From Hydrurus foetidus (lineage: Eukaryota), in assembly GCA_900617105.1 (NCBI GenBank), contig UYFQ01000574.1, positions 62,001 to 92,915 of the forward strand: DNA of 30,915 nt, given 5' to 3'. Both the position numbers and the translations under genes were made by a program. Shown here piece after piece: positions 5,124 through 30,915 of the stretch. Below the pieces are notes generated by a model. It worked only from the letters and a program-made list of their open reading frames with translations, was not told where the DNA came from and ran no database searches. The first letter of the stretch is position 1, and the number at the start of each line of letters is the position of its first letter.

Positions 5124-5824
5124 TATTGGTACCTGTCCTCCACTTATTATCTATGTTTTATGTTTATAGTGTTCATTTACGACCAATGTGTGATGCTGCA
5201 CATTCAATTATGATTCGGTAGGAGTACTGTTTTGCGCGCTGATATAAATTATCTGCTACTCCGAATTACTTCCATTGCTCTTTTTTGATTCGACCGCAAC
5301 TCCGGCAAATCCAGCGCATTCTAGTTCATCGTTACGTCAGTAATCTCTAACGCACCAGTTCATGACCGCAACAGCAGTACCGTAACGTGAAAGTAGATTA
5401 TTGCAGTACCATTCTTAGATACTTGCATAACCATGCCCACGATTTGGGCCCTTTCCAACACTAAGGAATCTGTCACAATGAACCCATGGATCACAAGTTG
5501 TGGCTTCGAATGGTATGAGGATGGCTCTGGATAGGATATCCAGGACTTCCTGACATACGGTTGAACGACGCTACAAATTGACTTCTAACTACTGCTTACC
5601 GTGATGCTGATGTTGCAGACAACATAATATGTCCTTCCATGCGCATTTTAAAAAAAATTCAAAAGCTTCTCCTTTTTTTGTACATTTTTCCAAAAGTAGG
5701 TATTTGAATTTGGGTGTATCCCAGATATTTCGGAATCTGGGTAAAAAAAACGATGGACAATCGTTGGGTTGGTGGATCCAAGGACCCTTTGGTGGATCAT
5801 TTCACATCAAAGTGGAATCGAATA

Positions 5825-6568
5825 CCGTCGCCGACCCTTTGTTTGCGGGGACTTGAGTGTACACTTTGGACATAGGTACTCTTTTCTGTCCAGGAGTCAC
5901 TATACACCACTTTTGGAGAATTTTTACTCATAGAATCACTGCAAACTCAATTCAGCGCCTCTTCCAGAGCTGAATGGTGCAAAATGTAGCTAGTGATGCA
6001 CTTAGTCAAGTCCAGAAGGGCCCATTTCGAAAGTGCACAAATGCAGCCGTTAGAGGCTTCACAAAAACCTCTCAATTTGGAGACATGGTACGTAGAGAGT
6101 TGAATAACTTTGACACCACTGCGTTGACTGGTCATCTGCGAGTTGATTACGCTAGCAAATTTAGCAAACAATCGCAAACTCGATTGTCCTAGCCGCCAAC
6201 ATGAACGGTTGATTTGAAAATTCATTTATACTCCGCTTACCTAATTTATCAGTCAGAACCCCAAATCAAGTTCCCGGACGTCAACCAAGAGGCTCTTCTG
6301 CGTTTGGAAGTAGGTTAAGAGTCTTGATAAGCTAGCAGTAGACTTTGGTCTCAGCAATCTGCTTGGTATGTTGGCTAGAAGTGTCATTTGCAGTGACCTA
6401 TGATTTATATCGTAGGCTACCATATTCACCAAATTTCGGTCATCAATAGCTCAATTTCAATTTACTGACAAATCTCACGCAGGTAGCAAACGAGGGGAAT
6501 CGCTGGGCAATTCTCAGCTGGAGGTTTCGGTGTGAATGCGGAGTATCATCGTCATCATATGTGTGCGT
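5825..6568 (+). repeat. Left inverted arm of the foldback element (744 bp)
   Basis: Reverse complement of 7109-7841, apart from an 18-nt versus 7-nt substitution at 5849-5866 / 7811-7817. Confidence 0.95.
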
Positions 6569-7108
6569 TACCTCACACTTCATTGCATTCATGCGCTGAA
6601 ATAAATCTTCCTTTTGAGATGTTCTAACAGTAGTCTAACAGTGTATCAAACATTATTTGCTTTGATGTATTTAGGACCGGTTTTAAAAGGAACTCAATTC
6701 TTTTTGGTTTAAATTAAGAAGAGTCGTGTCACTTGATATGGACATTTAATAGGTCGTGTCACTTTGAATCTCACTTAAAATTTACCTCGGAATTTCAGAT
6801 TACCAATTGCTGCCGATTGCTCTGCAGCTCATTCATCAATAGAATCTTTAGAACAGAATGTGTCTTGGTCGTTGCGTCTGTATATCAATCGAAAGATAAT
6901 CAATTCGCTCTATCGCTGTGATCGCATGTACAGGCAGTGCTTCAGACTCACGGATGAAAAACGTTTTTTTAATTCACCGCGAGAGAGTAAATGATTCTAT
7001 CGACAGCTAAAAAAGCGTGTTTAGATTCCCGATGTGCTTAAAACTTACAGCATTCAAGATTGAGAAGACGACTCAGATGATGGTAACTCATCGATAACAT
7101 ACTGTATT

Positions 7109-7841
7109 ACGCACACATATGATGACGATGATACTCCGCATTCACACCGAAACCTCCAGCTGAGAATTGCCCAGCGATTCCCCTCGTTTGCTACCTGCGT
7201 GAGATTTGTCAGTAAATTGAAATTGAGCTATTGATGACCGAAATTTGGTGAATATGGTAGCCTACGATATAAATCATAGGTCACTGCAAATGACACTTCT
7301 AGCCAACATACCAAGCAGATTGCTGAGACCAAAGTCTACTGCTAGCTTATCAAGACTCTTAACCTACTTCCAAACGCAGAAGAGCCTCTTGGTTGACGTC
7401 CGGGAACTTGATTTGGGGTTCTGACTGATAAATTAGGTAAGCGGAGTATAAATGAATTTTCAAATCAACCGTTCATGTTGGCGGCTAGGACAATCGAGTT
7501 TGCGATTGTTTGCTAAATTTGCTAGCGTAATCAACTCGCAGATGACCAGTCAACGCAGTGGTGTCAAAGTTATTCAACTCTCTACGTACCATGTCTCCAA
7601 ATTGAGAGGTTTTTGTGAAGCCTCTAACGGCTGCATTTGTGCACTTTCGAAATGGGCCCTTCTGGACTTGACTAAGTGCATCACTAGCTACATTTTGCAC
7701 CATTCAGCTCTGGAAGAGGCGCTGAATTGAGTTTGCAGTGATTCTATGAGTAAAAATTCTCCAAAAGTGGTGTATAGTGACTCCTGGACAGAAAAGAGTA
7801 CCTATGTCCAGAGAATTCCGCAAACAAAGGGTCGGCGACGG
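7109..7841 (-). repeat. Right inverted arm of the foldback element (733 bp)
   Basis: Reverse complement of 5825-6568. Confidence 0.95.
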
Positions 7842-8169
7842 TATGAGAAACCAGAAAGAGATCGATCTCTTGATCTGCTGTCCAAACTTCGAACACCAGA
7901 TGGCAATACAGTTCTAAATGGATCCCTTGTGCATGATAATGTACTTTGGACGAGTGCGACACATTTAAGGTGCGCTACTGGTTTCGATTTCCCACCGGTG
8001 TAGAGCGGACGGGGAATAAATCTGTTGGATGAGGAGTCAGGATATAAGTCATGACCACTAAAAGATAGAGATACTTGGTGCATATGGATTGAAGTTGCCG
8101 CGACGCAACGCATAGAAGAAAATCTTGTTTTCCTACACGGCTTCGAAACCAGAAGAGGATATCTAAATT

Positions 8170-12866: not shown

Positions 12867-13068
12867 GCCACAGCTGCTCTGAAAAAAAGATTACTTGACA
12901 GTATCGTGTACTGTCGATGAAAGTAGAGCGCTGAGTGCAGAGTGCATCATGGCAAGCAGTGGGCAACCTAAAAAAGCAGCAGATCTGACGACTGAATCTC
13001 ATCAAACCAGTGGGGTCAATCGGTAATCTCGTAATCCCAAAATTTTGTACCAAAAATCCGTTTGATAT

Positions 13069-13214
13069 TTGACTCTTGACTCTTGACTCTTGACACTTGA
13101 CTCTTGACTCTTGACACTTGACTCTTGACACTTGACTCTTGACTCTTGACTCTTGACTCTTGACTCTTGACTCTTGACTCTTGACTCTTGACTCTTGACT
13201 CTTGACTCTTGACT
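13069..13214 (+). repeat. Heptamer tandem repeat (TTGACTC)n, about 21 units, three of them the variant TTGACAC
   Basis: Read directly from the sequence. Confidence 0.97.
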
Positions 13215-13759: not shown

Positions 13760-14658
13760 GGGTACCAATTTGACTGCATTTGGAGCAAATAAAGCTGTTT
13801 CCCGATCAAATGAATCTTAATTTAGACCAAAAAAGTACGAAAAATGGAGCAAACATTTTCAGTATATTTCGCGATCAAATTAGTTCTGATATAAGGAGCA
13901 AAGTTAACCGAAATAGTAGCAAATATTGAGGGAATTTCCCACTTTTTTTTGGAGCAAAACGGTCTTCTATTTCTATCAAACCAATTGCAATTCCTCTCAA
14001 TTCGACTACAAATTCAGACTTTTTTGTGACTGACTGCTCAACTTCAGGCATCGCGGCGAAACTCAATTCTCTGTAGCCTGGCTCGACGCTGAGCCGAAAC
14101 CCTATGTCAGAAGCAAATGTCCTGTTGGATTTGATGATGAGCCTAGAGCCGTAATCACTTCCGACGCTAGAATCTCAGCAAAAAGAAAATTGGATAACTC
14201 GCACTGCAGCGGACGCTACAACCAACTACGCAGCCTATCTCGGGACAAAGCGAAGAAAATTGAAGAATCCATAACGCCGCTGCCGCAGTAGACAACGTGA
14301 TAACCAATTACTCATCCTATCTAGTACCGAGTCGAGTCGAGTTGAATAGGATTTGTAAGACTAAATACAAGATGTCACCTTCTAGCGTTCGCAGCGAAGG
14401 TGGAGAAGCAGCTGCAGGCTACTGTCTCAATTCAGTGAGACATTTGCTCCTATTACGGTTAACTTTGCTCCTTATATCAGAACTAATTTGATCTCAAAAT
14501 CGACTGGAAATGTTTGCTCCATTTCTCGTACTTTTTTGGTCTAAATTAAGATTTATTTGATCGGGAATTTGACAGATTTTATTTGATCGGGAATTTGACA
14601 GATTTTATTTAATCGAAAAACGGCCTCATTTGCTCCAAAAGCAGTCAAATTGGTACCC
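13760..14658. mobile_element. Non-autonomous TIR element (~900 bp) with ~165-215 bp imperfect inverted ends
   Basis: Ends read GGGTACCAATTTGACTGC ... GCAGTCAAATTGGTACCC. Inverted similarity spans 13760-~13925 and ~14442-14658, with repeated GGAGCAAA/TTTGCTCC sub-motifs. TGT(G) lies at both flanks as a candidate TSD. Confidence 0.8.
14553..14615 (+). repeat. 26-bp direct tandem duplication (TTATTTGATCGGGAATTTGACAGATT x2.4) inside the right TIR
   Basis: Read directly from the sequence. It is absent from the left TIR. Confidence 0.85.
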
Positions 14659-15054
14659 CTGTGGTCTCACTAGGACTCTGGGCGCTGGGACTGAGGGCTG
14701 CAGGAACGCGGGCAAAGGGAAAGGTGTGATGGGGCTGGTGCTATGGATAGCAATGTGGTTAGCTTACAGATAAATACAGCAGATATCATAGCAATGAATC
14801 GGATGGAGCGGATCGTCCTCGATCCGAACCGAACGTACGCCTGTACCCGTACATCTCGTACGGGTGTGTGGGTCACAGTGTACTAACTAACAAGATTCAC
14901 TATCAGAATACTAACTATTAATAACTAACTTGTGTTGAATACTATTTCAGACTGAGAACCTAGAGTTCTTTACTGAATAAACCTCCCTAAAATCCGTGAG
15001 GATCCAATTTAGGAGGAATCTTTGTGATTTAGTAACTCAATATGGTTTGACCGC

Positions 15055-15679
15055 CTAACGGTAGTTCGCGATGAATTCGCGTGGTATTAAGTGTTTGAGG
15101 TTCTTTCTGATCAAGAACTCATGTACTTTTTGCGATTTGCGCATGTGTGTCCACGGTTCCTAGGTGTTTTGTTCCTGGGTATAGTTGAGCCATTTCACAT
15201 GAAATGCGAGGGTCTTATAAGCTCGAATGTTGCCTTTCATCTCTAGAATATCTTCGATGAAGAATTCTAGGTAGTCCCTACGAGTAATGTCAGTTGGGTC
15301 GACATGAGTTGAGTCGAATTTAAAAAGGTTTATTTGAGTCATGTGGTACACTTTGTCTTTATGTGTTATTAGATCGAGTAATGTATACTCTGCGAAGTTG
15401 TGACTGACAACTCGCACTGAACCACACCATAGTGTGTTTATGCGTGTTTCTTGTGTTGTTCGCTGTTGCACAAGCACATATGTATCGACACCAAATTGTG
15501 TGATATTTGGAGATTGTTGTGCATTGTGGATGTCGTCTAATTCTTTGAGTAAACGTGCAGTGATTTGGATTAATTCATCCTGCAACGTTAACATCGTATC
15601 TGTTGATTTTGTTAGTGGCTGAAAGTCTAAACCGATTTCGTCTTGCATCAAGATCAATCGAGTTGCCGTAGATGAGTTG
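15055..15679 (-). pseudogene. 3' end of a chromovirus-type Ty3/Gypsy pol (integrase C-terminus plus chromodomain), with a nonsense mutation, truncated by the LTR at 15680
   Basis: VDTYVLV...LWCGSVRVVSH...YTLLDL...YHMTQINLF is a degenerate GPY/F region. It is followed by FFIEDIL...FHVKWLNYTQEQNT*EPWTHMRKSQKVHEFL, where the chromodomain TWEP has TGG changed to TAG. The natural stop is at 15055-15057. Confidence 0.85.
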
Positions 15680-16201
15680 TGTCGGCTTACAACTGCCATA
15701 AGTGCATGTTACAGCCGTAAATACCGTTAAGATAATCACCAATTAGCATTATAAATAATTCACATTTTAGTGTTTAAATGCATGTTAAGGAACACACAAT
15801 AGCATACAGTCAAGTCGCTTCCTCAATGCCATCCATATCGTATGCTATGCTATTGTTATAGTACCTCAAACATAGCCTTAGTTGAGCCGGGTAACATTTA
15901 GTACGAGACTCATCACCTACCATCCTTTCAGTATGTATAAGTGTATGAACTACTACCTCATTTATCATATGCAGAGATTTATCTCCTGCGATCAGACATT
16001 TTGGGAACTGCAACGTCAGAGTAACTTCTAGACGTTTGTCAGGTAGATTGCTTGCCACCACTCGTTACCTGCTGTGTCGCCAAACAAGTTTCTAACTCAT
16101 AATTAACTATTTCCCGTTGCACGATATTACATCGTGGGTCCTCACAACTTCCACTTGGCTTGACCACGGCGCCGCACATCAACGCCTGCTGACAACTGAC
16201 A
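15680..16201 (+). repeat. 5' LTR of the Gypsy element (LTR-A, 522 bp)
   Basis: TGTCGG...CTGACA termini, immediately followed by a PBS. The 5' boundary was fixed by alignment to 26080-26595 and by the end of the chromovirus coding remnant. Confidence 0.85.
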
Positions 16202-16214
16202 TGGTAGCGATTGA
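16202..16214 (+). promoter_or_regulatory. Primer-binding site TGGTAGCGATTGA (probably initiator tRNA-Met)
   Basis: TGG directly follows the LTR ...CA. TGGTAGC is complementary to the GCUACCA 3' end typical of many eukaryotic initiator tRNAs. Confidence 0.8.
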
Positions 16215-17309
16215 CCAGGTGTAGCTGTCTGGGGTCCTAGGGACCTTGGACCCGATTCCGTCTCTAGGTACACCTAAACTCCGTAGACTTCTAGGTAGAC
16301 TTCTAGCCATGCATAGGACGTTTCCTAGCGTTTGCCAGTTGTTTTCCTAACGTACCTAACCTAAGCAAGACCTTTCCCCATCCTAGCCTAAACCCTTCTA
16401 GGCCACAGTGACGTCACTCAGCCATTCCATCGTAGTTTCCACCGTCGTTTTCGTAGTTGCCATCGTCCATTTCATCCATCACCGCCCAGAAACTATCGTA
16501 TCGCTCCACTGGAGGGCTTCCAAGAGGTCCCACTCCTTCGTGATCGTTTATTTCTGGCCGAACTTCGTGCTATCCGCGAGGAAATCGAGAATCGCTGCCC
16601 AACTCCGGAGAATACTTGGGCCGACGACGACCCGAATCGTCCGCCAGACAACTCTCCGTCGCAGCAATCCATCGTACCCTCGACTCCTACTTCGAGAAAT
16701 CCATCGTCCGTTGGTTTTCCTCAAGTAGTTAGCCGAGCAGTAGCGAGTTCATCGCATCTAGTCGCCTCTAACCCCCAATCTTCTCACTCCACACACCAAC
16801 ACAACCCCCGAGTTAACTCGGTAGCTTCTGCTTTTCAGCATAGAAGATCGGCTTTTAAGCCTAGACCAGTTGTTCAGCGAGTTCTTTTGAGCTCGCTACG
16901 CTGTATACCAAGGTTTCCCCCAGAAGCCTTGCAAAATTTGCTTGAAACCCACGATTTCTTGTCTGTTTCATCTGATTTTAATTCACTTTCTGCACCGACT
17001 TATACGTCGACGTTCCCGGTGGTAATTCCAACCACCTCAAACCCAAGCAATCTACTTGGTTGCAAAAACATTCCGAGAGTGCATCTCGCTGAGCTTGAAT
17101 CCTCGCTTGACGAGTTGGCGGAATCGCTGTTTCCATACGAAACAGACCCGAATATATTTTCGACTTCACGAGTCGAAATATCTCGTAGATACCCCCAATT
17201 CATGGTGAAGAAATGACCTATACAGCCTTTGCGACGTGCTTCTGTTCCGCAAAGAGACCAAACAATACCGCTTACACAGCGAGAACCCTCAAATTCAAAT
17301 TTAAAGCTG

Positions 17310-20300
17310 ATGTCAAATTTACCTGCGGATTATTTAGCAGAGACTCCGTATGAGACCGGAGAGGAGTCAATGGAAATTGACGCCGTTCCTTCCAATTCAC
17401 ACCGTCATGGGCTACCTGACTTGGAAGATGGTGGAGAAATACCACGAGACAATTACGATTACTCTGAAGAGAGTGATATCGAGAACTCTCCGAGTAAATC
17501 GAGCCCGAGTAACTCGTCTAGTAGCTCTAGTAGCACTAGTAACCCCGATAGGCCCTTGACCTTACCTGAACTGTGTCAACAGGCATCGATGCGTGGTGAA
17601 GCTGGCGAAAGTACAGTCGCCCCGATTATCGAAAACGTGCGGCAGTCAACCCTCGTTCCCATCGTAGTCGATGTTCCACTCCGTACTCCTCAGTACAATA
17701 TGGAGCAGGTTGCAAGTGCTTTTAAACAGAGCATTACCGGTGGATTAAACCTCCAGAAACCGCTGTTTATCATTGATACCCCGAACATTACGGGAGAACA
17801 AGCTGCGAAGTTTCAAAATCAAGCCAATCAATGGCATGACAACTTTTTTACGCACCAGGTCGTCGTCGACCCCGCGACCTATGTCATACAATACGCTTTT
17901 GCAAGCGACCCAGAGTTTACTACACTCCCCAAAGATAAGTTTTCCACATGGTATAACCATGTTACAGTCAAAAAGGCTGCGACCATCATAACCAAATATT
18001 TTGGCGACAAAAATGATGTGGGTCGGACTCTCGTAGAGAACTTCGCGTCAATTGAAATTAATTTTTCTTTCACGAATGAGACCTACGAGAGGGAAACTTT
18101 CATGAAACTCAAGTCGCTTACAGCGACTTACGAGAACACCCAACCAATCACTCCAGAGCAGCATGCTGCACTGATAGTAACGATTGAGAAAAAACTCAAA
18201 CCTGATAGTCAACTAAAAAACGATTATTTCAGGGTGAAGGGTAACAATGGTAAACCCATTGCGAATGAGACCTGGGAGTCTGCATTCATCCGTTTTGGAA
18301 CGTGCATCGGACACGTACGTAAGCTTCTCAAAGAAGTCGCTAACTACGGTGACCCCGTTGGGAGACACTCTTACTCTTCGAGAGAGAGCCGCTATGATGA
18401 GCGAGTAACCCAGGTACCAAAAGCACAACAGATGATCATACCTGAACAGAGATCATTCTCTGCTGCTGTCTATGCTAAATCAGCACTAGCAGCACTGCCT
18501 CTCCCTCCCCCTGCTCAACCTATGCAAACGATGCAAGCTACCGCTCCCTTGGCAAGGAGAACATCAAATGACCCTCCGGTCCAGATGCGGCCCCAACCGC
18601 CACCTCCACCATGTCGCTCGTGTGGACATGCCGGACATGAGGTCCGAGACTGTCCGGCTCTGTTCTTTTCAGACGCCAACAATGAACTCCATCTGCTATG
18701 GAAGGACTCCACGATGGGTCACCTGTGGCTTCACCATGGGTTCCAAGCCTATGATGCGGGAGTCAAACTTCCAGGGTACGAGACCCAACACCTGAACAGA
18801 CCTCAGTCTGAATTCAAAGTGGGTATGCTATACCCACCCAAGAATCAGTTTAAGCGAACTCGTTTCGAGGGTACGCAGCCCCCGGCGCACGACCCCGCTA
18901 CAAATGCCCAACACGCGGAGAACCGCAGAAACAAAAAACAAGGTAATCCTTTGCACCAATCTGCTATCCTAGCAGCATCTCTGACTAAAATAGACATTGA
19001 TTCTAATTTTTTGTCTGCTTGGATTTTTATAAATCAGCTAAGCAGAGTCAGGAATGGGGCCAGGGTCACAACCCATACGTACCCCACCAACTACCCCCAA
19101 GGCCATAGGCCCCAAAGGGTTCTGGCGAAGGTTCTCCTGGATACCGGGAGCCTCCCCGGCGACTTTATTAGTCAGACTTTTGTAGATAACATTCACGGAG
19201 ATGATTTTGTTTACACATCTAATAACCCACTCACTATATGTTCTGGTCTCGATAACACTTGTTATGTTAGAGACCAGGTAATCGATATAGGCATGATTTT
19301 TGTCACAAACACTCTGTTAATTGAAACGATATTTTTAACAGTAAGGATTATTCCTAACACTATCGATTTAATTTTGGGTCGACCAACTCTTAGAAGTTAT
19401 GATTTCTTCACTTTAACCCCTTTTGAAATCGGGATGCCTAATGTGATAAACTCATTCGATAGAATGGAAGTTTTATTAGCTGCGGAGGGCATTCCGTCCA
19501 TACGTGAGTGCGAGAAGGGTGAAATGGCACGTCCTCATTCTGGTCATAGTACCATGCCATTCCACAAAACAGACTCTAACAGAGTAGCTCGCTGTTTTGA
19601 TGTCGGATGCTCTAGTCAACCGAGACCCTCTAGGGCTGAAACTATGTGTGACAGTTGTAACCATGTATCGACTCATGGTGGTGATCTACGTCTCCGAACG
19701 TACACCCTAGCACATTTATGTGAAATGGCAGATAGTGCTAAAACAGACGCTAGAGTGGAAACACCTAGTGGTATCGTAATCTCTTCAGACGAGATAGATA
19801 ATGAGAAGACCGATACTTTTCTCCCATTCTTGCCTAATCACATTAAGCAGAATGCTCCGCCTATAGGGCCAGAGGACTTTTTGTCACAAATAACAATTGA
19901 AGGGACGGAACACCAACAATTGCTTATTAGACGACTCTGTCTTAAATACGCAGACATATTTAGCGATAAACTAGCAGCTAAACCTGCTAGACTTCCTCCC
20001 TTTGTTATAAAAGTCAACAAGAGAGAATGGGAAAGTCCTAGAAATAGGACTGCCGTGCGTCTGCAAACCGTTCGAAAAGAACGTGAGATAAAACGAGCCA
20101 TCGATGAGATGTTGCGCTCGGGAGTCATTGAAGAATCGACGGCGGTTTATTATAGCCATCCTGTCATAGTACAGAGAACAGCTGATTTATACGGATTTTG
20201 CATTGACTATCGAAATCTGAATAAATGCACCGAGACTGCCAGCTGGCCGTTGCCGAACATTCGGGCTCTTTTCGAGCGAATCGGCCATCAACAGCCAAAC

Positions 20301-20945
20301 ATATTCGGAGTCATGGATCTAACTTCAGGCTACCATCAGGCACCTATGGATCATGCATTCAGGGTCCTGACTGCATTCATTTGCTATTATGGTGTATAAC
20401 AATTCACCAGACTACCCTTCGGTCCTCGGAGAGCCCCCTCTTACTTCCAAGAGATGATGGCGACTATAGTCCTCAATGGACTCATTTACATTTCATGTGA
20501 AATGTACTTGGACGATTGTATCGTCTTTGCACGAGGTCAGGATGAGTTCCTGGAGAGACTAGAACGAGTCTTTCGACGTTTTCGTTGTTTTGGTTTACTG
20601 CTTAAAGCAAAGAAATGTAGATTTGGTATGACCCAAATCGATTATGTCGGTCGACAAATTTCTTCCCAAGGCATTTCTATGTCTAAAGAGAAGATAGAAA
20701 CGGTTTTAAATTTCCCGAAACCCATGACCCTTACTTCTTTACGAAGTTTATTGGGCTTGGCGAACTACTTCAGGAACTTTGTTCCCTTTCATGCCGACAT
20801 AGTCGCTCCACTTCAAAAGATGATCGACCCTAAAGGGCGTAAAAAATCTAAAATTGACTGGAACGAACAGGCAGATAAGTCTTTCTTTGCAATAAGAAAA
20901 GCAATATCCCGCTGCCCACTTCTTCATTTTTTAGATGAAGTGTGA
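17310..20945 (+). pseudogene. Gypsy gag-PR-RT copy 1, with a premature TAA at 20397-20399 in RT, truncated before RNase H
   Basis: ORFs 17229-20399 and 20454-20945 are in the same frame. TAA here corresponds to TAC in copy 2. The first ATG is at 17310. Confidence 0.9.
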
Positions 20946-21082
20946 TTTTTTTCTTTTTTTTAGAAATACCACGAGACAATTACGATTAGTCTGAAGAGAG
21001 TGATATCGAGAACTCTCCGAGTAAATCGAGCCCGAGTAACTCGTCTAGTAGCTCTAGTAGCACTAGTAACCCCGATAGGCCC

Positions 21083-24000
21083 TTGACCTTACCTGAACTG
21101 TGTCAACAGGCATCGATGCGTGGTGAAGCTGGCGAAAGTACAGTCGCCCCGATTATCGAAAACGTGCGGCAGTCAACCCTCGTTCCCATCGTAGTCGATG
21201 TTCCACTCCGTACTCCTCAGTACAATATGGAGCAGGTTGCAAGTGCTTTTAAACAGAGCATTACCGGTGGATTAAACCTCCAGAAACCGCTGTTTATCAT
21301 TGATACCCCGAACATTACGGGAGAACAAGCTGCGAAGTTTCAAAATCAGGCCAATCAATGGCATGACAACTTTTTTACGCACCAGGTCGTCGTCGACCCC
21401 GCGACCTATGTCATACAATACGCTTTTGCAAGCGACCCAGAGTTTACTACACTCCCCAAAGATAAGTTTTCCACATGGTATAACCATGTTACAGTCAAAC
21501 AGGCTGCGACCATCATAACGAAACATTTTGGCGACAAAAATGATGTGGGTCGGACTCTCGTAGAGAACTTCGCGTCAATTGAAATTAATTTTTCTTTCAC
21601 GAATGAGACCTACGAGAGGGAAACTTTCATGAAACTCAAGTCGCTTACAGCGACTTACGAGAACACCCAACCAATCACCCCAGAGCAGCATGCTGCACTG
21701 ATAGTAACGATTGAGAAAAAACTCAAACCTGATAGTCAACTAAAAAACGATTATTTCAGGGTGAAGGGTAACAATGGTAAACCCATTGCGAATGAGACCT
21801 GGGAGTCTGCATTCATCCGTTTTGGAACGTGCATCGGACACGTACGTAAGCTTCTCAAAGAAGTCGCTAACTACGGTGACCCCGTTGGGAGACACTCTTA
21901 CTCTTCGAGAGAGAGCCGCTATGATGAGCGAGTAACCCAGGTACCAAAAGCACAACAGATGATCATACCTGAACAGAGATCATTCTCTGCTGCTGTCTAT
22001 GCTAAATCAGCACTAGCAGCACTGCCTCTCCCTCCCCCTGCTCAACCTATGCAAACGATGCAAGCTACCGCTCCCTTGGCAAGGAGAACATCAAATGACC
22101 CTCCGGTTCAGATGCGGCCCCAACCGCCACCTCCACCATGTCGCTCGTGTGGATATGCCGGACATGAGGTCCGAGACTGTCCGGCTCTGTTCTTTTCAGA
22201 CGCCAACAATGAACTTCATCTGCTATGGAAGGACTCCACGATGGGTCACCTGTGGCTTCACCATGGGTTCCAAGCCTATGATGCGGGAGTCAAACTTCCA
22301 GGGTACGAGACCCAACACCTGAACAGACCTCAGTCTGAATTCAAAGTGGGTATGCTATACCCACCCAAGAATCAGTTTAAGCGAACTCGTTTCGAGGGTA
22401 CGCAGCCCCCGGCGCACGACCCCGCTACAAATGCCCAACACGCGGAGAACCGCAGAAACAAAAAACAAGGTAATCCTTTGCACCAATCTGCTATCCTAGC
22501 AGCATCTCTGACTAAAATAGACATTGATTCTAATTTCTTGTCTGCTTGGAATTTTATAAATCAGCTAAGCAGAGTCAGGAATGGAGCCAGGGTCACAACC
22601 CATACGTGCCTCACCAACTACCCCCAAGGCCATAGGCCCCAAAGGGTTCTGGCGAAGGTTCTCCTGGATACCGGGAGCCTCCCCGGCGACTTTATTAGTC
22701 AGACTTTTGTAGATAACATTCACGGAGATGGTTTTGTTTACACATCTAATAACCCACTCACTATATGTTCTGGTCTCGATAACACTTGTTATGTTAGAGA
22801 CCAGGTAATCGATATAGGCATGATTTTTGTCACAAACACTCTGTTAATTGAAACGATATTTTTAACAGTAAGGATTATTCCTAACACTATCGATTTAATT
22901 TTGGGTCGACCAACTCTTAGAAGTTATGATTTCTTCACTTTAACCCCTTTTGAAATCGGGATGCCTAATGTGATAAACTCATTCGAAAGAATGGAAGTTT
23001 TATTAGCTGCGGAGGGCATTCCGTCCATACGTGAGGGCGAGAAGGGTGAATTGGCACGTCCTCATTCTGGTCATAGTACCATGCCATTCCACAAAACAGA
23101 CTCTAACAGAGTAGCTCGCTGTTTTGATGTCGGATGCTCTAGTCAACCGAGCACCTCTAGGGCTGAAACTATGTGTGACAGTTGTAACCATGTATCGACT
23201 CATGGTGGTGATCTACGTCTCCGAACGTACACCCTAGCACATTTATGTGAAATGGCAGATATTGCTAAAACAGACGCTAGAGTGGAAACACCTAGTGGTA
23301 TCGTAATCTCTTCAGACGAGATAGATAATGAGAAGACCGATACTTTTCTCCCATTCTTGCCTAATCACATTAAGCAGAATGCTCCGCCTATAGGGCCAGA
23401 GGACTTTTTGTCACAAATAACAATTGAAGGGACGGAACACCAACAATTGCTTATTAGACGACTCTGTCTCAAATACGCAGACATATTTAGCGATAAACTA
23501 GCAGCTAAACCTGCTAGACTTCCTCCCTTTGTTATAAAAGTCAACAAGAGAGAATGGGAAAGTCCTAGAAATAGGACTGCCGTGCGTCTGCAAACCGTAA
23601 GTGAGATAAAACGAGCCATCGATGAGATGTTGCGCTCGGGAGTCATTGAAGAATCGACGGCGGTTTATTACAGCCATCCTGTCATAGTACAGAGAACAGC
23701 TGATCTATACAGATTTTGCATTGACTACCGAAATCTGAATAAATGCACCGAGGCTGCCAGCTGGCCGCTGCCGAACATTCGCGCTCTTTTCGAGCGAATC
23801 GGCCATCAACAGCCAAACATATTCGGAGTTATGGATCTAACTTCAGGCTACCATCAGGCACCTATGGATCATGCATTCAGGGTCCTGACTGCATTCATTT
23901 GCTATTATGGTGTATACCAATTCACCAGACTACCCTTCGGTCCTCGGAGAGCCCCCTCTTACTTCCAAGAGATGATGGCGACTATAGTCCTCAATGGACT

Positions 24001-24463
24001 CATTTATATTTCATGTGAAATGTACTTGGACGATTGTATCGTCTTTGCACGAGGTCAGGATGAGTTCCTGGAGAGACTAGAACGAGTCTTTCGACGTTTT
24101 CGTTGTTTTGGTTTACTGCTTAAAGCAAAGAAATGTAGATTTGGTATGACCCAAATCGATTATGTCGGTCGACAAATTTCTTCCCAAGGCATTTCTATGT
24201 CTAAAGAGAAGATAGAAACGGTTTTAAATTTCCCGAAACCCATGACCCTTACTTCTTTACGAAGTTTATTGGGCTTGGCGAACTACTTCAGGAACTTTGT
24301 TCCCTTTCATGCCGACATAGTCGCTCCACTTCAAAAGATGATCGACCCTAAAGGGCGTAAAAAATCTAAAATTGACTGGAACGAACAGGCAGATAAGTCT
24401 TTCTTTGCAATAAGAAAAGCAATATCCCGCTGCCCACTTCTTCATTTTTTAGATGAAGTGTGA
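21083..24463 (+). CDS. Gypsy gag-PR-RT copy 2: uninterrupted ORF (first ATG 21116) lacking the native N-terminus, RNase H and integrase
   Basis: 1126-codon ORF with CCHC, LLDTGS and YLDD. It ends at CPLLHFLDEV*, just before the expected RNase H TDAS motif. Confidence 0.85.
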   Translation: MTLPELCQQASMRGEAGESTVAPIIENVRQSTLVPIVVDVPLRTPQYNMEQVASAFKQSITGGLNLQKPLFIIDTPNITGEQAAKFQNQANQWHDNFFTHQVVVDPATYVIQYAFASDPEFTTLPKDKFSTWYNHVTVKQAATIITKHFGDKNDVGRTLVENFASIEINFSFTNETYERETFMKLKSLTATYENTQPITPEQHAALIVTIEKKLKPDSQLKNDYFRVKGNNGKPIANETWESAFIRFGTCIGHVRKLLKEVANYGDPVGRHSYSSRESRYDERVTQVPKAQQMIIPEQRSFSAAVYAKSALAALPLPPPAQPMQTMQATAPLARRTSNDPPVQMRPQPPPPPCRSCGYAGHEVRDCPALFFSDANNELHLLWKDSTMGHLWLHHGFQAYDAGVKLPGYETQHLNRPQSEFKVGMLYPPKNQFKRTRFEGTQPPAHDPATNAQHAENRRNKKQGNPLHQSAILAASLTKIDIDSNFLSAWNFINQLSRVRNGARVTTHTCLTNYPQGHRPQRVLAKVLLDTGSLPGDFISQTFVDNIHGDGFVYTSNNPLTICSGLDNTCYVRDQVIDIGMIFVTNTLLIETIFLTVRIIPNTIDLILGRPTLRSYDFFTLTPFEIGMPNVINSFERMEVLLAAEGIPSIREGEKGELARPHSGHSTMPFHKTDSNRVARCFDVGCSSQPSTSRAETMCDSCNHVSTHGGDLRLRTYTLAHLCEMADIAKTDARVETPSGIVISSDEIDNEKTDTFLPFLPNHIKQNAPPIGPEDFLSQITIEGTEHQQLLIRRLCLKYADIFSDKLAAKPARLPPFVIKVNKREWESPRNRTAVRLQTVSEIKRAIDEMLRSGVIEESTAVYYSHPVIVQRTADLYRFCIDYRNLNKCTEAASWPLPNIRALFERIGHQQPNIFGVMDLTSGYHQAPMDHAFRVLTAFICYYGVYQFTRLPFGPRRAPSYFQEMMATIVLNGLIYISCEMYLDDCIVFARGQDEFLERLERVFRRFRCFGLLLKAKKCRFGMTQIDYVGRQISSQGISMSKEKIETVLNFPKPMTLTSLRSLLGLANYFRNFVPFHADIVAPLQKMIDPKGRKKSKIDWNEQADKSFFAIRKAISRCPLLHFLDEV

Positions 24464-24600
24464 TTTTTTTCTTTTTTTTAGAAATACCACGAGACAATTA
24501 CGATTAGTCTGAAGAGAGTGATATCGAGAACTCTCCGAGTAAATCGAGCCCGAGTAACTCGTCTAGTAGCTCTAGTAGCACTAGTAACCCCGATAGGCCC

Positions 24601-26076
24601 TTGACCTTACCTGAACTGTGTCAACAGGCATCGATGCGTGGTGAAGCTGGCGAAAGTACAGTCGCCCCGATTATCGAAAACGTGCGGCAGTCAACCCTCG
24701 TTCCCATCGTAGTCGATGTTCCACTCCGTACTCCTCAGTACAATATGGAGCAGGTTGCAAGTGCTTTTAAACAGAGCATTACCGGTGGATTAAACCTCCA
24801 GAAACCGCTGTTTATCATTGATACCCCGAACATTACGGGAGAACAAGCTGCGAAGTTTCAAAATCAGGCCAATCAATGGCATGACAACTTTTTTACGCAC
24901 CAAGTCGTCGTCGACCCCGCGACCTATGTCATACAATACGCTTTTGCAAGCGACCCAGAGTTTACTACACTCCCCAAAGATAAGTTTTCCACATGGTATA
25001 ACCATGTTACAGTCAAACAGGCTGCGACCATCATAACGAAACATTTTGGCGACAAAAATGATGTGGGTCGGACTCTCGTAGAGAACTTCGCGTCAATTGA
25101 AATTAATTTTTCTTTCACGAATGAGACCTACGAGAGGGAAACTTTCATGAAACTCAAGTCGCTTACAGCGACTTACGACAACACCCAACCAATCACCCCA
25201 GAGCAGCATGCTGCACTGATAGTAACGATTGAGAAAAAACTCAAACCTGATAGTCAACTAAAAAACGATTATTTCAGGGTGAAGGGTAACAATGGTAAAC
25301 CCATTGCGAATGAGACCTGGGAGTCTGCATTCATCCGTTTTGGAACGTGCATCGAACACGTACGTAAGCTTCTCAAAGAAGTCGCTAACTACGGTGACCC
25401 CGTTGGGAGACACTCTTACTCTTCGAGAGAGAGCCGCTATGATGAGCGAGTAACCCAGGTACCAAAAGCACAACAGATGATCATACCTGAACAGAGATCA
25501 TTCTCTGCTGCTGTCTATGCTAAATCAGCACTAGCAGCACTGCCTCTCCCTCCCTCTGCTCAACCTATGCAAACGATGCAAGCTACCGCCCCCTTGGCAA
25601 GGAGAACATCAAATGGCCCTCCGGTCCAGATGCGACCCCAACCGCCACCTCCACCATGTCGCTCGTGTGGACATGCCGGACATGAGGTCCGAGACTGTCC
25701 GGCTCTGTTCTTTTCAGACGCCAACAATGGACTCCATCTGCAATGGAAGGACTCCACGATGGGTCACCTGTGGCTTCACCATGGGTTCCAAGCCTATGAT
25801 GCGGGAGTCAAACTTCCAGGGTACGAGACCCAACACCTGAACAGACCTCAGTCTGAATTCAAAGTGGGTATGCTATACCCACCCAAGAATCAGTTTAAGC
25901 GAACTCGTTTCGAGGGTACGCAGCCCCCGGCGCACGACCCCGCTACAAATGCCCAACACGCGGAGAACCGCAGAAACAAAAAACAAGGTAATCCTTTGCA
26001 CCAATCTGCTATCCTAGCAGCATCTCTGACTAAAATAGACATTGATTATATTTCTTGTCTGCTTGGATTTTTATAA
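24601..26076 (+). pseudogene. Gypsy gag copy 3, frameshifted near 26047 and cut by the Copia insertion
   Basis: Matches copies 1 and 2 up to TTTATAAATC (26079), then switches to TGTCGG of LTR-B. Confidence 0.9.
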
Positions 26077-26079
26077 ATC

Positions 26080-26595
26080 TGTCGGTATATAACAGCGATA
26101 AGTGCTAGTTATAGCTGTATATTACCATTTGTATAATCAACAATTAGCATGATAGGATATCATAAGTAAACACATTTTGTAGATTGTTATTGGTGTGCAA
26201 TGTGCACCAAGTCGCTTCCTCAATGCCAATTCGTATCACGTATATTGCCATTGTTACACCATAATAACCACAGCTGTATAGTATTTATCCGGTACTTGGT
26301 ACCAAAAGTCTAGCTTTTAGTACAAACGTCATATTTACAGTTGAGTAGCTACTATCTCGCCTATACAACAACGTAGATATAAATCTACGAGAGCCAGTCA
26401 AATTGCATGCGCATGACGATTGAGATCTTATTATTGTACGGCAGGTAGAAATGATGTGCAACATGAATTAATGTTTTGTGGCCTCCGTGCCAGTTTCTAA
26501 TTCTTAAATCGAATATACTAACCAAACCTTTCCATCTTAATTTGGCCATCCACGATATGTCCTCCCGACTTCGTGCCAACCCGTGGCAACTCACA
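26080..26595 (+). repeat. 5' LTR of the Copia element (LTR-B, 516 bp)
   Basis: TGTCGG...CTCACA. It starts exactly where the Gypsy copy 3 sequence stops, is followed by a PBS, and is colinear with LTR-A. Confidence 0.88.
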
Positions 26596-26608
26596 TGGTA
26601 GCGATTGA
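26596..26608 (+). promoter_or_regulatory. Primer-binding site TGGTAGCGATTGA
   Basis: Identical over 13 nt to the Gypsy PBS at 16202 and directly after the LTR CA. Confidence 0.8.
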
Positions 26609-26659: not shown

Positions 26660-28180
26660 ATGGTCAAAGGAAAGAAAGGCCTGGGGCCATTCTCGTCAGA
26701 AGAAGACGAAGAGCCTCCGTTGCCAACACCTAACCCACTAATCCCTACTCTCCCTCTGATTCCTGCATTAGGAATTGAGGAGCCTCCCATCGGTGTTGTA
26801 ATCGATGAGGAAAGCCCTCAATTCCGGGCAGCTTTAGATAGACGAATCGCTCAAATCCAGTTGCTAAGAGATGAGAGCCCGATTATAGATAACCCGTTAG
26901 GGTTGATCGACATCGCGCCAAGGGTGGATCTGCCGTTAGGCGATCAACCCTCGTCTAGGAGCACTGAGATGAGAGCGATTCTTACAAACCTCCGTCCGTC
27001 AAGTCCTATGCCGTCCGATGATGAATCGTCCTTTAGCAGTAGCAAAATTTCTAGTAGATTGAATAACGGAGGAAACCCTCGCAAAAATTTTTCGAGCGAG
27101 TCTTCAATAACGACAATGAAGGGTCGAAAGGACTCTAATAATAACAACAAGAACAAAATCGGATCGACGCCGAAGCAATCAGAATTTTGGGATAAGGATA
27201 GCAGCAGTAGTGACGAGGAACAAAATAACACATATTCGAAGAAGAAACCATGTGAAAAGATGGTCAAACGAATACACTACCAACGAAATTCGACAGTGCT
27301 CATATCAGAAATATCAAAATACATCATTGACATAAATACGCCAGACAAATTTCACCGTCTGCGTATGATACATTCGGTACTATCAACAACGGGGTTACTT
27401 ACCCTTATTGAAGGTCATCATACCGAGCCAATAATGACAGACGAAAATATTCATGGGTTCTCAAATAGAAAAATTATACTAGTTCCTAGAGTTGAATATG
27501 AAGATGAGAAATCAATTGACTCACTATCATCGGAGCCAATTATCGAAAGAGTAGTTCTCGAAGAAGATGATGCATTCCACTATATTCATGATAATGATAG
27601 ACTATTTTCTCTAGTTTACATTATGTTTTCAAAAACTTTGCATCATAATATATCAATAATAAATCAAAAGTTACGAAACGGAATTGCATCTTATCGAGAA
27701 ATGATCAATTACATCTTCGGTCAAAAGCAACAGGACGTGAAATTCGCAAGAAAAGCGTTGGACACGTACCAAATAAATCCAAGTGTTCATTTTAGATTAG
27801 AATACTCTAAATGGGAACAATTATTCTCTAATCTAGAACACGCACAGAGTAGAATGATGACTGACGTCGAGAAAATGGCTTGGGTATCAGATCGGTTAGA
27901 TTCTGACCCAAGACCTAAGATCGCTTCATCATTTGCTGCATGTGTCGTGAATAACACAAGTTATAATGAGTCGATGGGAATTATGTTGAGAGTCGCAGAT
28001 GCAATGCCGCCTGAAACAGCGGTCATTCGCATGGCGAGTGTCACATCTTTTCCTGAAACGTCAAGTAGCTCTGAATATTCTCTGTATCAAAATACAATTC
28101 AAAATCAGTCTCAAGCGAAGTTAAATCAATATCAATCCTTGTCAAATCCGCCGCAAAATCCGGGTAAAACAACAATATAA
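26660..28180 (+). CDS. Copia gag-like ORF (segment 1), continuing by a +1 frameshift near 28165
   Basis: Starts about 50 nt after the PBS. A Pro/Ser-rich N-terminus is followed by a helical region (RNGIASYREMINYIFG) reminiscent of the Copia gag capsid. Confidence 0.65.
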   Translation: MVKGKKGLGPFSSEEDEEPPLPTPNPLIPTLPLIPALGIEEPPIGVVIDEESPQFRAALDRRIAQIQLLRDESPIIDNPLGLIDIAPRVDLPLGDQPSSRSTEMRAILTNLRPSSPMPSDDESSFSSSKISSRLNNGGNPRKNFSSESSITTMKGRKDSNNNNKNKIGSTPKQSEFWDKDSSSSDEEQNNTYSKKKPCEKMVKRIHYQRNSTVLISEISKYIIDINTPDKFHRLRMIHSVLSTTGLLTLIEGHHTEPIMTDENIHGFSNRKIILVPRVEYEDEKSIDSLSSEPIIERVVLEEDDAFHYIHDNDRLFSLVYIMFSKTLHHNISIINQKLRNGIASYREMINYIFGQKQQDVKFARKALDTYQINPSVHFRLEYSKWEQLFSNLEHAQSRMMTDVEKMAWVSDRLDSDPRPKIASSFAACVVNNTSYNESMGIMLRVADAMPPETAVIRMASVTSFPETSSSSEYSLYQNTIQNQSQAKLNQYQSLSNPPQNPGKTTI

Positions 28181-29972
28181 TCCAGCTTATAATTATGATA
28201 TTAATAACAAGAATAAAATTCAAGATGCTAGATCCTTACCTGACAATACTGGAGACAATAAAAGACCGGTTAAAAATGGTGGATATTGTTTTGGATTTCA
28301 AAAAGGAACTTGTAACAGACCAACATGCAAATACAAGCATGAAATGAATCCAGACAATGAAAATAAAATCCAACAACCACAACCAAATACAATTCCTTAC
28401 AAAAAGTCAGTACAATTTGATTTAAGTCAAGCACAAATTGACTCAGTAGGACCAAAGGTTGGTGACCCAAGTATACGGGGTGGATATTCAAAAGCGCAAA
28501 TTAAAAGATTAAATTGGATGAGATCTCAAGATAATGAAACTGAACATCAGGTGCGTGCATTCTCAAGTTGGGGTAACCCTTCTGCACCACCTTATCAGTC
28601 AAATGAAGAAAAACACAATACATTAATGCGAGTGCGAATAACACCAAATGATCAAAGAATAATAAAAACTGATAGGCAAAATCAAGAATATAAAAATAAA
28701 ATTTACAATGGAAAAATGAATCAAAATGAAATGAAAAGTCATCAAAGAGCTCTACTCCAAAATGTTCAAAATAATTATTCTGCATGCTCTATTCCCCAAA
28801 GGGCAATCAATGCCGCAATACTATTAGCCGAACAATACTATTTGTTTCATTTATATGTAATGGAATATAATAGAAATGATCCTGCAACAACAATAGTTCC
28901 TTATATCTTTTTATTCAAAAACAAAAGAACAATTAAGGACAATCAAGAAAGAGCAAATCAGTACACTGATCTTTTTGGGTGGCATAAAAATCCATCTACT
29001 ACACGTAGAAAGGATATACGCACTCCAACAGTTAAATGGATGCACCTGATGTATCAGATAGGAGCTACACTATTACAAGCATGTATAGTTCTCCCTCCTG
29101 CTGATGAAAAGGCCGGACCTCATCACTTTATGAAATTCAATCCATACTGTATTGACGGGGTGACGGAAAAATATATTCCTTCAACTAGACCAGGACACTA
29201 TTGGTCTCAAATGACTTGTGTTAGTGAATATGCGGAAGTAATAAAACGTCTTGATCAATATACACAATACAATGAAGTAATTAATAATACATTATTCATT
29301 GATACAGTTTTGCACGCAATCATATTCGACTTTGTCGCATTTGCGGGACAACATGTTGGATATTACCACGAGAAATCAAATCTGGATAAAGAAGACTTAT
29401 TAAGAAGATCACTAAAAATGGATATACTTAAAGAAAATGATCCATCGTTTGTTATGTTTGGAATTAGAGATGCATTCTTAGTAATAGCAAGACTAGTAAG
29501 ACCAATTAATGACTTGGTAAAAAGAACATTGTCATCACCATTAACGAATGAATTAGATGAATTAATACACTCACATCAAACGTCAAAAGACGTGGTCAAA
29601 AAACCAATGATAACAGTCCTATATGACAGAGCTCAATCACCGATTTTTGATGTAGATGTAGTAACAAGAACAACTGAAGAATTGTCTCCAATGTATATAC
29701 ATACATCAGATCAAAGTGATAATGAATCAAGTGATATGTCATATGATAGAGTTGATATTCCTGATAGTCCAATATCAATGGAATCTATTAAATCACCTCC
29801 ATTTAGTATTGAAACACCTAAATACATTGAATATGTTGGAGGTGTAAGAATTGAAGACTATGATCAGCTTGGAAAATATAGAAAACTAAAAGGTTATGAT
29901 GTAAATCAACCTAAACCAGAACCAGAAATAGATAGTAATATATGCAATAACAGAATTTGTAAAAGATGTTAG
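28143..29972 (+). CDS. Copia polyprotein segment 2: CCCH zinc finger plus a ~540-aa region of unknown function
   Basis: The frame is open upstream of the listed ATG (28344) and encodes YCFGFQKGTCNRPTCKYKH at about 28284-28340. No recognisable motif was found downstream. Confidence 0.65.
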   Translation, partial: QIRRKIRVKQQYNPAYNYDINNKNKIQDARSLPDNTGDNKRPVKNGGYCFGFQKGTCNRPTCKYKHEMNPDNENKIQQPQPNTIPYKKSVQFDLSQAQIDSVGPKVGDPSIRGGYSKAQIKRLNWMRSQDNETEHQVRAFSSWGNPSAPPYQSNEEKHNTLMRVRITPNDQRIIKTDRQNQEYKNKIYNGKMNQNEMKSHQRALLQNVQNNYSACSIPQRAINAAILLAEQYYLFHLYVMEYNRNDPATTIVPYIFLFKNKRTIKDNQERANQYTDLFGWHKNPSTTRRKDIRTPTVKWMHLMYQIGATLLQACIVLPPADEKAGPHHFMKFNPYCIDGVTEKYIPSTRPGHYWSQMTCVSEYAEVIKRLDQYTQYNEVINNTLFIDTVLHAIIFDFVAFAGQHVGYYHEKSNLDKEDLLRRSLKMDILKENDPSFVMFGIRDAFLVIARLVRPINDLVKRTLSSPLTNELDELIHSHQTSKDVVKKPMITVLYDRAQSPIFDVDVVTRTTEELSPMYIHTSDQSDNESSDMSYDRVDIPDSPISMESIKSPPFSIETPKYIEYVGGVRIEDYDQLGKYRKLKGYDVNQPKPEPEIDSNICNNRICKRC

Positions 29973-30915
29973 TGATGATGATGATGAAAATGCAAATGAA
30001 AACTTGGAAGAAAGACAAATTAGATATAAAAATAAATTTGAAAGTTTAGTAAAAGAACATGATTCAAAAAGACTAAAATTAAATGAATCTGAAGATAATG
30101 ACAAGATGAACGAATCAAATGAAATTAATGAAAGTACTGATATTCAACCAATAAAAAACCAATTGAAATCTCTAAGAATAAATCATAATATTAAATCAAT
30201 GAAAATGCAAGGGCAAATAATATTCGACTCTGGTGCGTCAACATGTGCCACATCTGATCCTACGCTCCTACGTCACATAATATATGGTCAGGGTATCAAA
30301 GCAACTCCAGCTTTCGGTCCCGCCATCGAATCAAAAGCGACAGGACTATATGGACCATTGGGTCTCGACATTATACTTATGGAAGGGATGAAAGAAACAT
30401 TAATTTCAATATCCCAACTATGTAATGGCGGACTATCTGGATCACAAAATGTTGTTATATTTACATCAGAAGGAATGAGATGTTTTTCAATAGAATCTAT
30501 TAGAGAAGCATTGGCACTAATAGATAAATTAGGAATTGAGATTATTCGTGGTTACATATCAAATGGTGTATATGTATATAATCAAAATGAAGAAAAAGTA
30601 ATCAATAAAGTTGTTAGTAACAAAGACATAGTTCAAAAAACACCTTCTCCTAGTTGTAAAGAAACAATAATAAAAACGAATATCCCAGCAACTTTATATT
30701 TGACACAATTTAAACCCGTGTCATTATATGACCACGTACACATGGTTACCGGACATCCCGGAAATATTGGAATGTTATGGCATCTAAAGAATTCTACCAA
30801 TGCAAAATTTACTGAAGAGAATGCAAATAAACAACGCGGTCCATGCAAAGGTTGCGTATATGGCACCATGCATCAAACTGGGACTGATCACAGAAGAGAA
30901 CATAGAGATCTTCCC
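29932..30915 (+). CDS. Copia pol segment 3: aspartic protease and integrase HHCC region. 3'-partial and missing from the ORF track
   Basis: The frame is open from 29932 to the window end. DSG is at 30226, His residues at 30739 and 30754, Cys residues at 30844 and 30853. Confidence 0.88.
   Translation, partial: MVIYAITEFVKDVSDDDDENANENLEERQIRYKNKFESLVKEHDSKRLKLNESEDNDKMNESNEINESTDIQPIKNQLKSLRINHNIKSMKMQGQIIFDSGASTCATSDPTLLRHIIYGQGIKATPAFGPAIESKATGLYGPLGLDIILMEGMKETLISISQLCNGGLSGSQNVVIFTSEGMRCFSIESIREALALIDKLGIEIIRGYISNGVYVYNQNEEKVINKVVSNKDIVQKTPSPSCKETIIKTNIPATLYLTQFKPVSLYDHVHMVTGHPGNIGMLWHLKNSTNAKFTEENANKQRGPCKGCVYGTMHQTGTDHRREHRDLP

What the first reader, a model, noticed from the sequence alone, without database searches (positions are those of the whole stretch)
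15680..26608. A Gypsy and a Copia retrotransposon share a homologous LTR and an identical PBS
Seen: LTR-A (15680-16201, 522 bp) heads a gag-PR-RT (Gypsy) element, and LTR-B (26080-26595, 516 bp) heads a gag-PR-INT (Copia) element. They are colinear end to end. Both start TGTCGG, and my manual alignment of the first ~71 positions gives about 55 matches. They share an exact 21-mer CAAGTCGCTTCCTCAATGCCA (15811-15831 and 26208-26228) plus the blocks CAATTAGCAT, CACATTTT, CAGGTAGA and AGTTTCTAA. Both end CAACT(G/C)ACA and are followed by TGGTAGCGATTGA. Similarity stops right after the PBS. Known: LTRs evolve fast and are normally not alignable across the two superfamilies. Inference: an LTR+PBS module was swapped across superfamilies, for example by co-packaging and template switching. 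That would give two unrelated coding cores a shared promoter, primer and integrase att ends, and possibly cross-mobilisation or co-silencing.
Basis: partly seen in the sequence, partly recalled or inferred. Interest (0 to 1): 0.9.

Follow-up and report, generated by a model that had tools for sequence, protein, structure and literature searches.

The report
Gypsy element wearing a Copia LTR
Two unrelated kinds of jumping gene in this eukaryote genome carry related end-repeats and the same priming site, likely because a Gypsy-type element took over the control end of a Copia-type one; whether a whole family carries it, or only this copy, is untested.

Summary
LTR-A (15680-16201) and LTR-B (26080-26595) are homologous (local z 25; 0 of 400 shuffles reach it). 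Overall identity is only 57% against 48% for shuffles, concentrated in three islands. LTR-A heads a chromovirus (Gypsy) core; LTR-B heads a PR-INT core whose relatives carry Copia RT. The cores share no same-strand DNA. A chromovirus LTR in the same window and a sister Copia's LTR resemble neither, so this is not general LTR conservation. A B-like LTR follows a Copia-type polypurine tract in public contigs, so the LTR clan looks Copia-native and LTR-A borrowed. The identical PBS is probably just a shared host tRNA primer, but it offers the crossover point. The weak link: no 3' LTR lies in the window, no genome was available, no listed contig bridges either PBS, and this Gypsy copy is rearranged (3.5-kb triplication, truncated RT). 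Contig depths hint that LTR-A travels with the Gypsy family. Verdict: old Copia-to-Gypsy LTR capture at family level about 55%; one-locus chimera about 33%. No printed precedent across superfamilies turned up in six searches.

The parts
14660..14877 (-). LTR-C: 3' LTR (218 bp) of an older chromovirus; control LTR, unrelated to A and B
   Evidence: 76% to the LTR that follows INT-chromodomain and a purine tract in L173; z<1 against A and B
15061..15679 (-). Integrase/chromodomain end of that older chromovirus, cut by the LTR-A insertion
   Evidence: tblastn 60% to P0102/P0103, matches run up to the LTR-A edge; P0103 has rve and Chromo
15675..15679 (+). Candidate left target-site copy AGTTG of the LTR-A element (right copy not in window)
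   Evidence: sequence
15680..16201 (+). LTR-A, 522 bp, homologous to LTR-B
   Evidence: covered by many variant contigs in 4 of 4 runs
15811..15831 (+). 21-mer shared exactly with LTR-B
16202..16214 (+). PBS-A, identical to PBS-B over 13 nt
   Evidence: primer tRNA inferred, not found
16215..16508 (+). Gypsy 5' leader; the LTR/core joint lies here, probably in its first few bases
   Evidence: no similarity to the Copia leader; coding homology starts at 16509; two ENA frames match 16221-16310 only
16509..20945 (+). Chromovirus gag-PR-RT, broken by stops at 17214-17216 and 20397-20399, truncated before RNase H
   Evidence: 56% to P0009 residues 1-1430; RVT_1 E 2e-11; relatives have RT-RH-INT-Chromo
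20946..20961 (+). T-rich filler at the tandem junction, repeated at the second junction
20962..24479 (+). Second tandem copy of the 3.5-kb gag-PR-RT unit
   Evidence: 98.9% over 5128 nt
24480..26079 (+). Third copy, cut by the Copia insertion after AAATC (26075-26079)
   Evidence: copies 1 and 2 and contigs of public runs continue uninterrupted at this place
26080..26595 (+). LTR-B, 516 bp, 5' LTR of the Copia element
26208..26228 (+). 21-mer shared with LTR-A
26596..26608 (+). PBS-B
26660..30915 (+). Copia gag (CCCH finger), PR and start of INT, in three frames (breaks near 28125-28180 and 29932-29972); runs off the window before RT
   Evidence: colinear with Copia polyprotein P0162 (27-45%) and 65% to P0133; these have SH3_retrovirus then RVT_2

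Best explanation
A chromovirus (Gypsy) core sits behind an LTR and primer site homologous to those of a Copia element, likely because a Gypsy lineage captured the Copia module long ago and has since likely multiplied with it. Shown: the LTR homology, the unrelated cores, the end of similarity at the PBS. Inferred: both elements are primed by one host tRNA (probably initiator Met), so the PBS is the only homology two unrelated elements share. In a mixed particle the Copia plus-strand strong-stop DNA (U3-R-U5-PBS) could anneal through the PBS to a Gypsy minus strand; alternatively a Gypsy nested in a Copia could lose the DNA between the two PBSs. A second exchange at the polypurine tract/U3 border would be needed to give two matching LTRs and a replicating family, whose Gypsy integrase would have to accept the Copia TG...CA ends. 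The LTRs then diverged to 57%, keeping three islands (5' end, 21-mer, 3' end plus PBS) that likely carry att and promoter functions.
For: Homology far above shuffles. Controls negative: chromovirus LTR-C and two relatives give z 0.9 or less against A and B, though they match each other at z 24-50; the first 95 nt of a sister Copia's 3' LTR (L260) give z 1.0 or less. Copia-native polarity: two X9 contigs put TACGGGGTG before a B-like LTR start, and the Copia in L260 has TACGGGGAG before its LTR, whereas the chromovirus in L173 has a different tract and a 220-bp TGTG LTR. In X9 the LTR-B contig has depth 274; the two closest Copia-internal contigs have 137 and 172. For LTR-A in X5, depth stays in one range from LTR (485) through U5 (541, 264) into the leader (339, 324), near the Gypsy RT total (475). 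A third LTR variant keeps the same three islands (one X8 contig; one X9 contig shows two).
Against: No 3' LTR of either element is in the window and no genome is held. No listed contig bridges PBS-A or PBS-B by 31 nt on both sides, and the tables are cut. The tool states that contig depth is no copy number; near-identical Gypsy gag contigs in X5 have depth only 65-72, so LTR-A is about 7 times deeper than they are, which a separate Copia subfamily would also explain. Other X9 Copia-internal contigs have depth 50-153. This Gypsy copy is rearranged. Two ENA frames match the leader at 16221-16310 and then run into different sequence just short of the PBS, so relatives can carry this leader without PBS-A next to it. 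The PPT seen in X9 precedes a B-like variant, not B itself. Co-packaging across superfamilies is not shown.
Confidence: 0.55

Rival explanations
1. One-locus chimera. LTR-A is the 5' LTR of a second, diverged Copia subfamily. A Gypsy core was joined to it once, here, by deletion between two identical PBSs of nested elements or by a single plus-strand transfer. The product is a dead end.
For: LTR-A is Copia-type by sequence; LTR-A is deeper than the near-identical Gypsy gag contigs; the locus is nested four deep and rearranged; nested Copia/chromovirus joints also occur in L260 and L176; ENA frames show the leader in another context.
Against: Needs a breakpoint within a few bases of the PBS at one locus. 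Depth does not drop to single-locus level across U5 and leader in any of 4 runs, though no bridging contig is listed.
Confidence: 0.33
2. The transfer went the other way: a Gypsy LTR clan was captured by the Copia, which then amplified.
For: Symmetric with the alignment; LTR-A also matches no LTR of the sister Copia L260.
Against: B-like and L260 LTRs share the Copia tract and TGTC start; the only chromovirus LTRs seen are of another type. These chromoviruses are distant (about 48% in pol), so polarity is weakly rooted.
Confidence: 0.06
3. No transfer: deep common ancestry or convergence on the same host factors and primer. HMM consensus trees have grouped chromovirus LTRs with Copia LTRs.
For: PMC3601003, abstract and LTR phylogeny section; identity is low outside three islands.
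Against: That paper says its consensus alignments are not accurate except at the terminal repeats. Here 77% over 75 nt, an exact 21-mer and equal length are shared, while same-superfamily LTRs of the same or related hosts share nothing.
Confidence: 0.03
4. Assembly artefact: the graph was crossed at the shared PBS, or the triplication is a mis-join.
For: High-copy repeats; no bridging record listed.
Against: A 13-nt shared word is shorter than usual assembly k-mers (general knowledge); tandem copies differ by 0.7-1.1%; the Copia insertion has a clean edge.
Confidence: 0.03

Closest known systems
LTR swapping between autonomous and non-autonomous partners in soybean (Du et al. 2010, Plant Cell; only the reference title seen; paper not held; content recalled)
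   Same: An LTR moves onto a different internal region by inter-element recombination.
   Different: Recalled as occurring between related partners within one Gypsy lineage; here the cores belong to different superfamilies and both are protein-coding.
Chimeric TRIMs with LTRs donated by other families in sugar beet (bioRxiv 10.64898/2026.03.01.708851; passages seen)
   Same: LTR modules reshuffled between divergent families, attributed to template switching.
   Different: Non-coding elements; the passages seen describe no Copia LTR on a coding Gypsy core.
Gmr9/GmOgre minisatellites acquired by other retrotransposon families (PMC3305785; abstract and discussion seen)
   Same: Sequence modules pass between LTR families.
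   Different: Internal minisatellites, not the LTR and PBS.
Chromovirus LTRs clustering with Pseudoviridae in HMM consensus trees (PMC3601003; passages and section 15 seen)
   Same: LTR tree discordant with Pol tree; recombination raised as one explanation for a different discordance.
   Different: Motif and composition level, not directly alignable LTRs with a 21-nt identity in one genome.
Yeast Ty1 and Ty3, plant Copia and chromoviruses using initiator Met tRNA (recalled, no call)
   Same: One PBS shared across superfamilies.
   Different: Their LTRs are not alignable; explains the PBS identity only.

Membership tests
Ty3/Gypsy, chromovirus branch (upstream core) | RT of the RVT_1 type following gag and protease | tested here: met
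   RVT_1 E 2e-11 in 20400-20942; 56% to P0009 over residues 1-1430
Ty3/Gypsy, chromovirus branch (upstream core) | Order RT-RH-INT with C-terminal chromodomain | tested here: inconclusive
   This copy ends before RNase H; the order and Chromo are present in the three close relatives scanned, P0007, P0009, P0153
Ty3/Gypsy, chromovirus branch (upstream core) | Two matching LTRs and a target-site duplication | not testable with these tools
   3' end not in window; no genome
Ty1/Copia (downstream core) | Protease followed directly by integrase, not RT | tested here: met
   DSGA motif then H-x3-GH...CxxC in 29932-30915, colinear with P0133 residues 98-349, whose rve begins at 351; Pfam itself did not hit this stretch
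Ty1/Copia (downstream core) | RVT_2-type RT downstream of INT | tested here: inconclusive
   Window ends first; 4 of 5 homologues carry RVT_2, after SH3_retrovirus
Ty1/Copia (downstream core) | TG...CA LTR, PBS, insertion edge; 3' LTR and TSD | tested here: inconclusive
   5' features present, empty site seen; 3' end outside window
Family-level LTR swap | Homologous LTRs on non-homologous cores, break at the LTR/PBS border | tested here: met
   cores share only one 22-nt opposite-strand match
Family-level LTR swap | The new LTR-core joint occurs in many independent copies | tested here: inconclusive
   Depth hints only; no bridging contig listed
Family-level LTR swap | Recipient's 3' LTR is of the donor type; LTR tree discordant with RT tree | not testable with these tools
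   No A- or B-type LTR found outside the window in any held collection
Initiator-Met tRNA priming | PBS complementary to the host tRNA 3' end | not testable with these tools
   Host tRNA genes not held; 0 tRNAs in 76 pattern hits; assignment rests on recalled TGGTAGC-type PBSs

The most novel reading that the evidence does not exclude
A multi-copy chromovirus family replicates with a Copia-derived LTR and PBS at both ends: a stable capture of promoter, att ends and primer site across the Gypsy/Copia divide, with the shared tRNA primer site as crossover point, and a clan of at least three LTR variants spread over both superfamilies in one genome.
Probability: 0.55. Interest if true: 0.8.

Novelty: new variant of a known kind. 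Interest (0 to 1): 0.62.

Why it matters
Gypsy and Copia are treated as separate lineages whose LTRs do not mix, and families and solo LTRs are classified by LTR sequence. A family-level capture would show that the cis module is portable between them, that a Gypsy integrase accepts Copia ends, and that a shared primer site can be a recombination bridge. It would make testable whether LTR or integrase sets expression and target choice, and would give a concrete route to the LTR/Pol tree discordance reported at consensus level (PMC3601003). As a one-locus chimera it is a curiosity.

Tried and rejected
No host genome. The 21-mer or 20-mer had 0 hits in metagenome, viral and genome contigs. Gypsy and Copia proteins found no viral loci. 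Bacterial genome searches found retroelement contigs only in G001 and G012: 2 of 19, 1 of 401, 1 of 401, 2 of 151, 2 of 41; neither holds an A- or B-type LTR; the one PBS word in G012 is chance. A frame across PBS-A found 0 representatives. tRNA pattern: 0 of 76. No RNA holder listed, no evidence either way. PDB: 0. Atlas unanswered, so host lineage is undetermined. Earlier findings: nothing in 5 look-ups. A 5' hairpin in the first 45 nt folds weakly (about -6 kcal/mol) and differently in A and B, without shuffle control; not used. The LTR-C-like piece beside a Copia RNase H in L176 is in opposite orientation; rejected as a second swap. Literature: searches and passages of PMC9804982, PMC11403837, PMC4668562, PMC4379980, PMC3701649 gave no cross-superfamily LTR sharing; one search (PBS word) gave 0. 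The library lacks most subscription papers and repeat databases; no supplements were read, and repeat libraries in them could hold such cases.
Full report
Observation. Both LTRs are at the stated coordinates, with the same start, end and 13-nt PBS. Their similarity is far above chance: global score 781 against 449+-25 in 500 shuffles, strict local score 336 against 76+-10 with 0 of 400 shuffles reaching it, and nothing against the reverse complement. It is old: 56.6% strict global identity against 47.8% shuffled, carried by the first 75 nt (77%), the 21-mer region and the end plus PBS; the four later segments score z 1.8-3.0 each. It stops at the PBS (z 0.65) and does not extend upstream (z -1.3).

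Anatomy. The host is a eukaryote (split genes with DEAD/Helicase_C, Rubisco LSMT and PP2C domains); its lineage was not determined. The locus is nested. An older chromovirus end lies on the minus strand with its own 218-bp LTR-C. The LTR-A element is inserted in its integrase. Behind PBS-A, homology to a 2018-residue chromovirus polyprotein begins at 16509. The core stops before RNase H and a 3.5-kb gag-PR-RT unit is repeated three times with the same T-rich junction. The LTR-B element is inserted in the third unit after AAATC; units 1 and 2, and contigs in public runs, continue uninterrupted there. Neither 3' LTR is in the window.

Classification. Upstream core: RVT_1; 293 homologues, the best 74-83% identical and carrying RT, RNase H, integrase and chromodomain. 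Downstream core: 5 homologues at 45-65%, 4 with RVT_2, in the order integrase, SH3, RT; the window is colinear with a 2049-residue Copia polyprotein from gag to the start of integrase. The Copia's own RT is outside the window. The two cores share only one 22-nt opposite-strand match.

Controls. LTR-C and two relatives from L173 and L260 match each other (z 50, 24) and neither A nor B (z 0.9 or less). The first 95 nt of a sister Copia's 3' LTR (L260, 67% to P0133 in RT-RH) match neither A nor B (z 1.0 or less), while A and B match over the same length at z 9.9. So A is closer to B than either is to the other LTRs at hand of its own superfamily.

Which superfamily owns the LTR. The Copia is covered over all 30 bins by many variant contigs in 4 of 4 runs. 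In X9 one LTR-B contig has depth 274, the two closest internal contigs 137 and 172, others 50-153. Two X9 contigs place TACGGGGTG before a B-like LTR start; the Copia in L260 has TACGGGGAG before its LTR; the chromovirus in L173 has a different tract. A third variant matches B only at the 5' end, the 21-mer region and the end plus PBS (one X8 contig, sides 35 and 22 letters, which the tool flags as weak). I infer a Copia-native LTR clan with constrained islands, rather than recent gene conversion.

The open joint. Whether LTR-A belongs to the Gypsy family is not shown. For: in X5 depth is 485 in the LTR, 541 and 264 in U5, 339 and 324 in the leader, 475 in RT. Against: near-identical gag contigs there have 65-72; depth is no copy number; no listed contig bridges the PBS; 671 loose ends were not shown. 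Two ENA frames match the leader at 16221-16310 (87% over 30 residues) and diverge 6 nt short of the PBS. That fits a break at the PBS but does not tell a family from a single locus. No further A- or B-type LTR was found in any held collection (see Tried and rejected).

Mechanism (inferred). The PBS reads like an initiator-Met site (recalled; host tRNA not found), which Gypsy and Copia often share, so its identity is ordinary. It is, however, the one homology available for a plus-strand transfer or a deletion between nested elements. A replicating family needs a second exchange at the 3' end. Shared promoter use, cross-mobilisation and co-silencing through the 21-mer are untested, and at 57% identity the first two are doubtful today.

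Comparison and verdict. LTR exchange between families is known (Du et al. 2010, title only and recall; sugar-beet preprint passages; PMC3305785), and chromovirus LTR consensuses have clustered with Copia ones (PMC3601003). Searches found no alignable LTR shared by a coding Gypsy and a coding Copia; the library is incomplete. Family-level capture 0.55, one-locus chimera 0.33, reverse direction 0.06, convergence 0.03, artefact 0.03. New variant of a known kind; interest 0.62, 0.8 if the family-level case holds.

Noticed in passing
window 5813-7853: Perfect 705-nt inverted repeat (5864-6568 / 7109-7813, 540 nt apart) with short outer arms; foldback-like element or artefact.
   Followed up: no
window 13062-13214: Array of about 22 TTGACTC-type 7-mers.
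   Followed up: no
window 13760-14658: About 900-bp element with long imperfect terminal inverted repeats, abutting the end of LTR-C; likely a non-autonomous DNA transposon.
   Followed up: no
window 17435-26079: Tandem triplication of a 3.5-kb internal gag-PR-RT unit without LTRs, copies 0.7-1.1% apart, same T-rich filler at both junctions.
   Followed up: partly
G001 (L172-L176) and G012 (L177, L256, L260): Two bacterial species-representative genomes contain eukaryote Copia and chromovirus contigs, one 92% identical to window 29652-30574; probable contamination.
   Followed up: partly
L171 960-2290: The Copia protease fragment runs into an unrelated Thr-rich repetitive reading frame; not identified.
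   Followed up: no
L260 1-601: 3' LTR of a sister Copia is interrupted after 95 nt by an LTR-C-type chromovirus end in reverse orientation.
   Followed up: partly
window 16221-16310, proteins P0182 and P0183: These ENA frames continue 35 residues past the match and end in Met-stop, which on the other strand could be an LTR end with a different PBS; back-translation only, speculative.
   Followed up: partly
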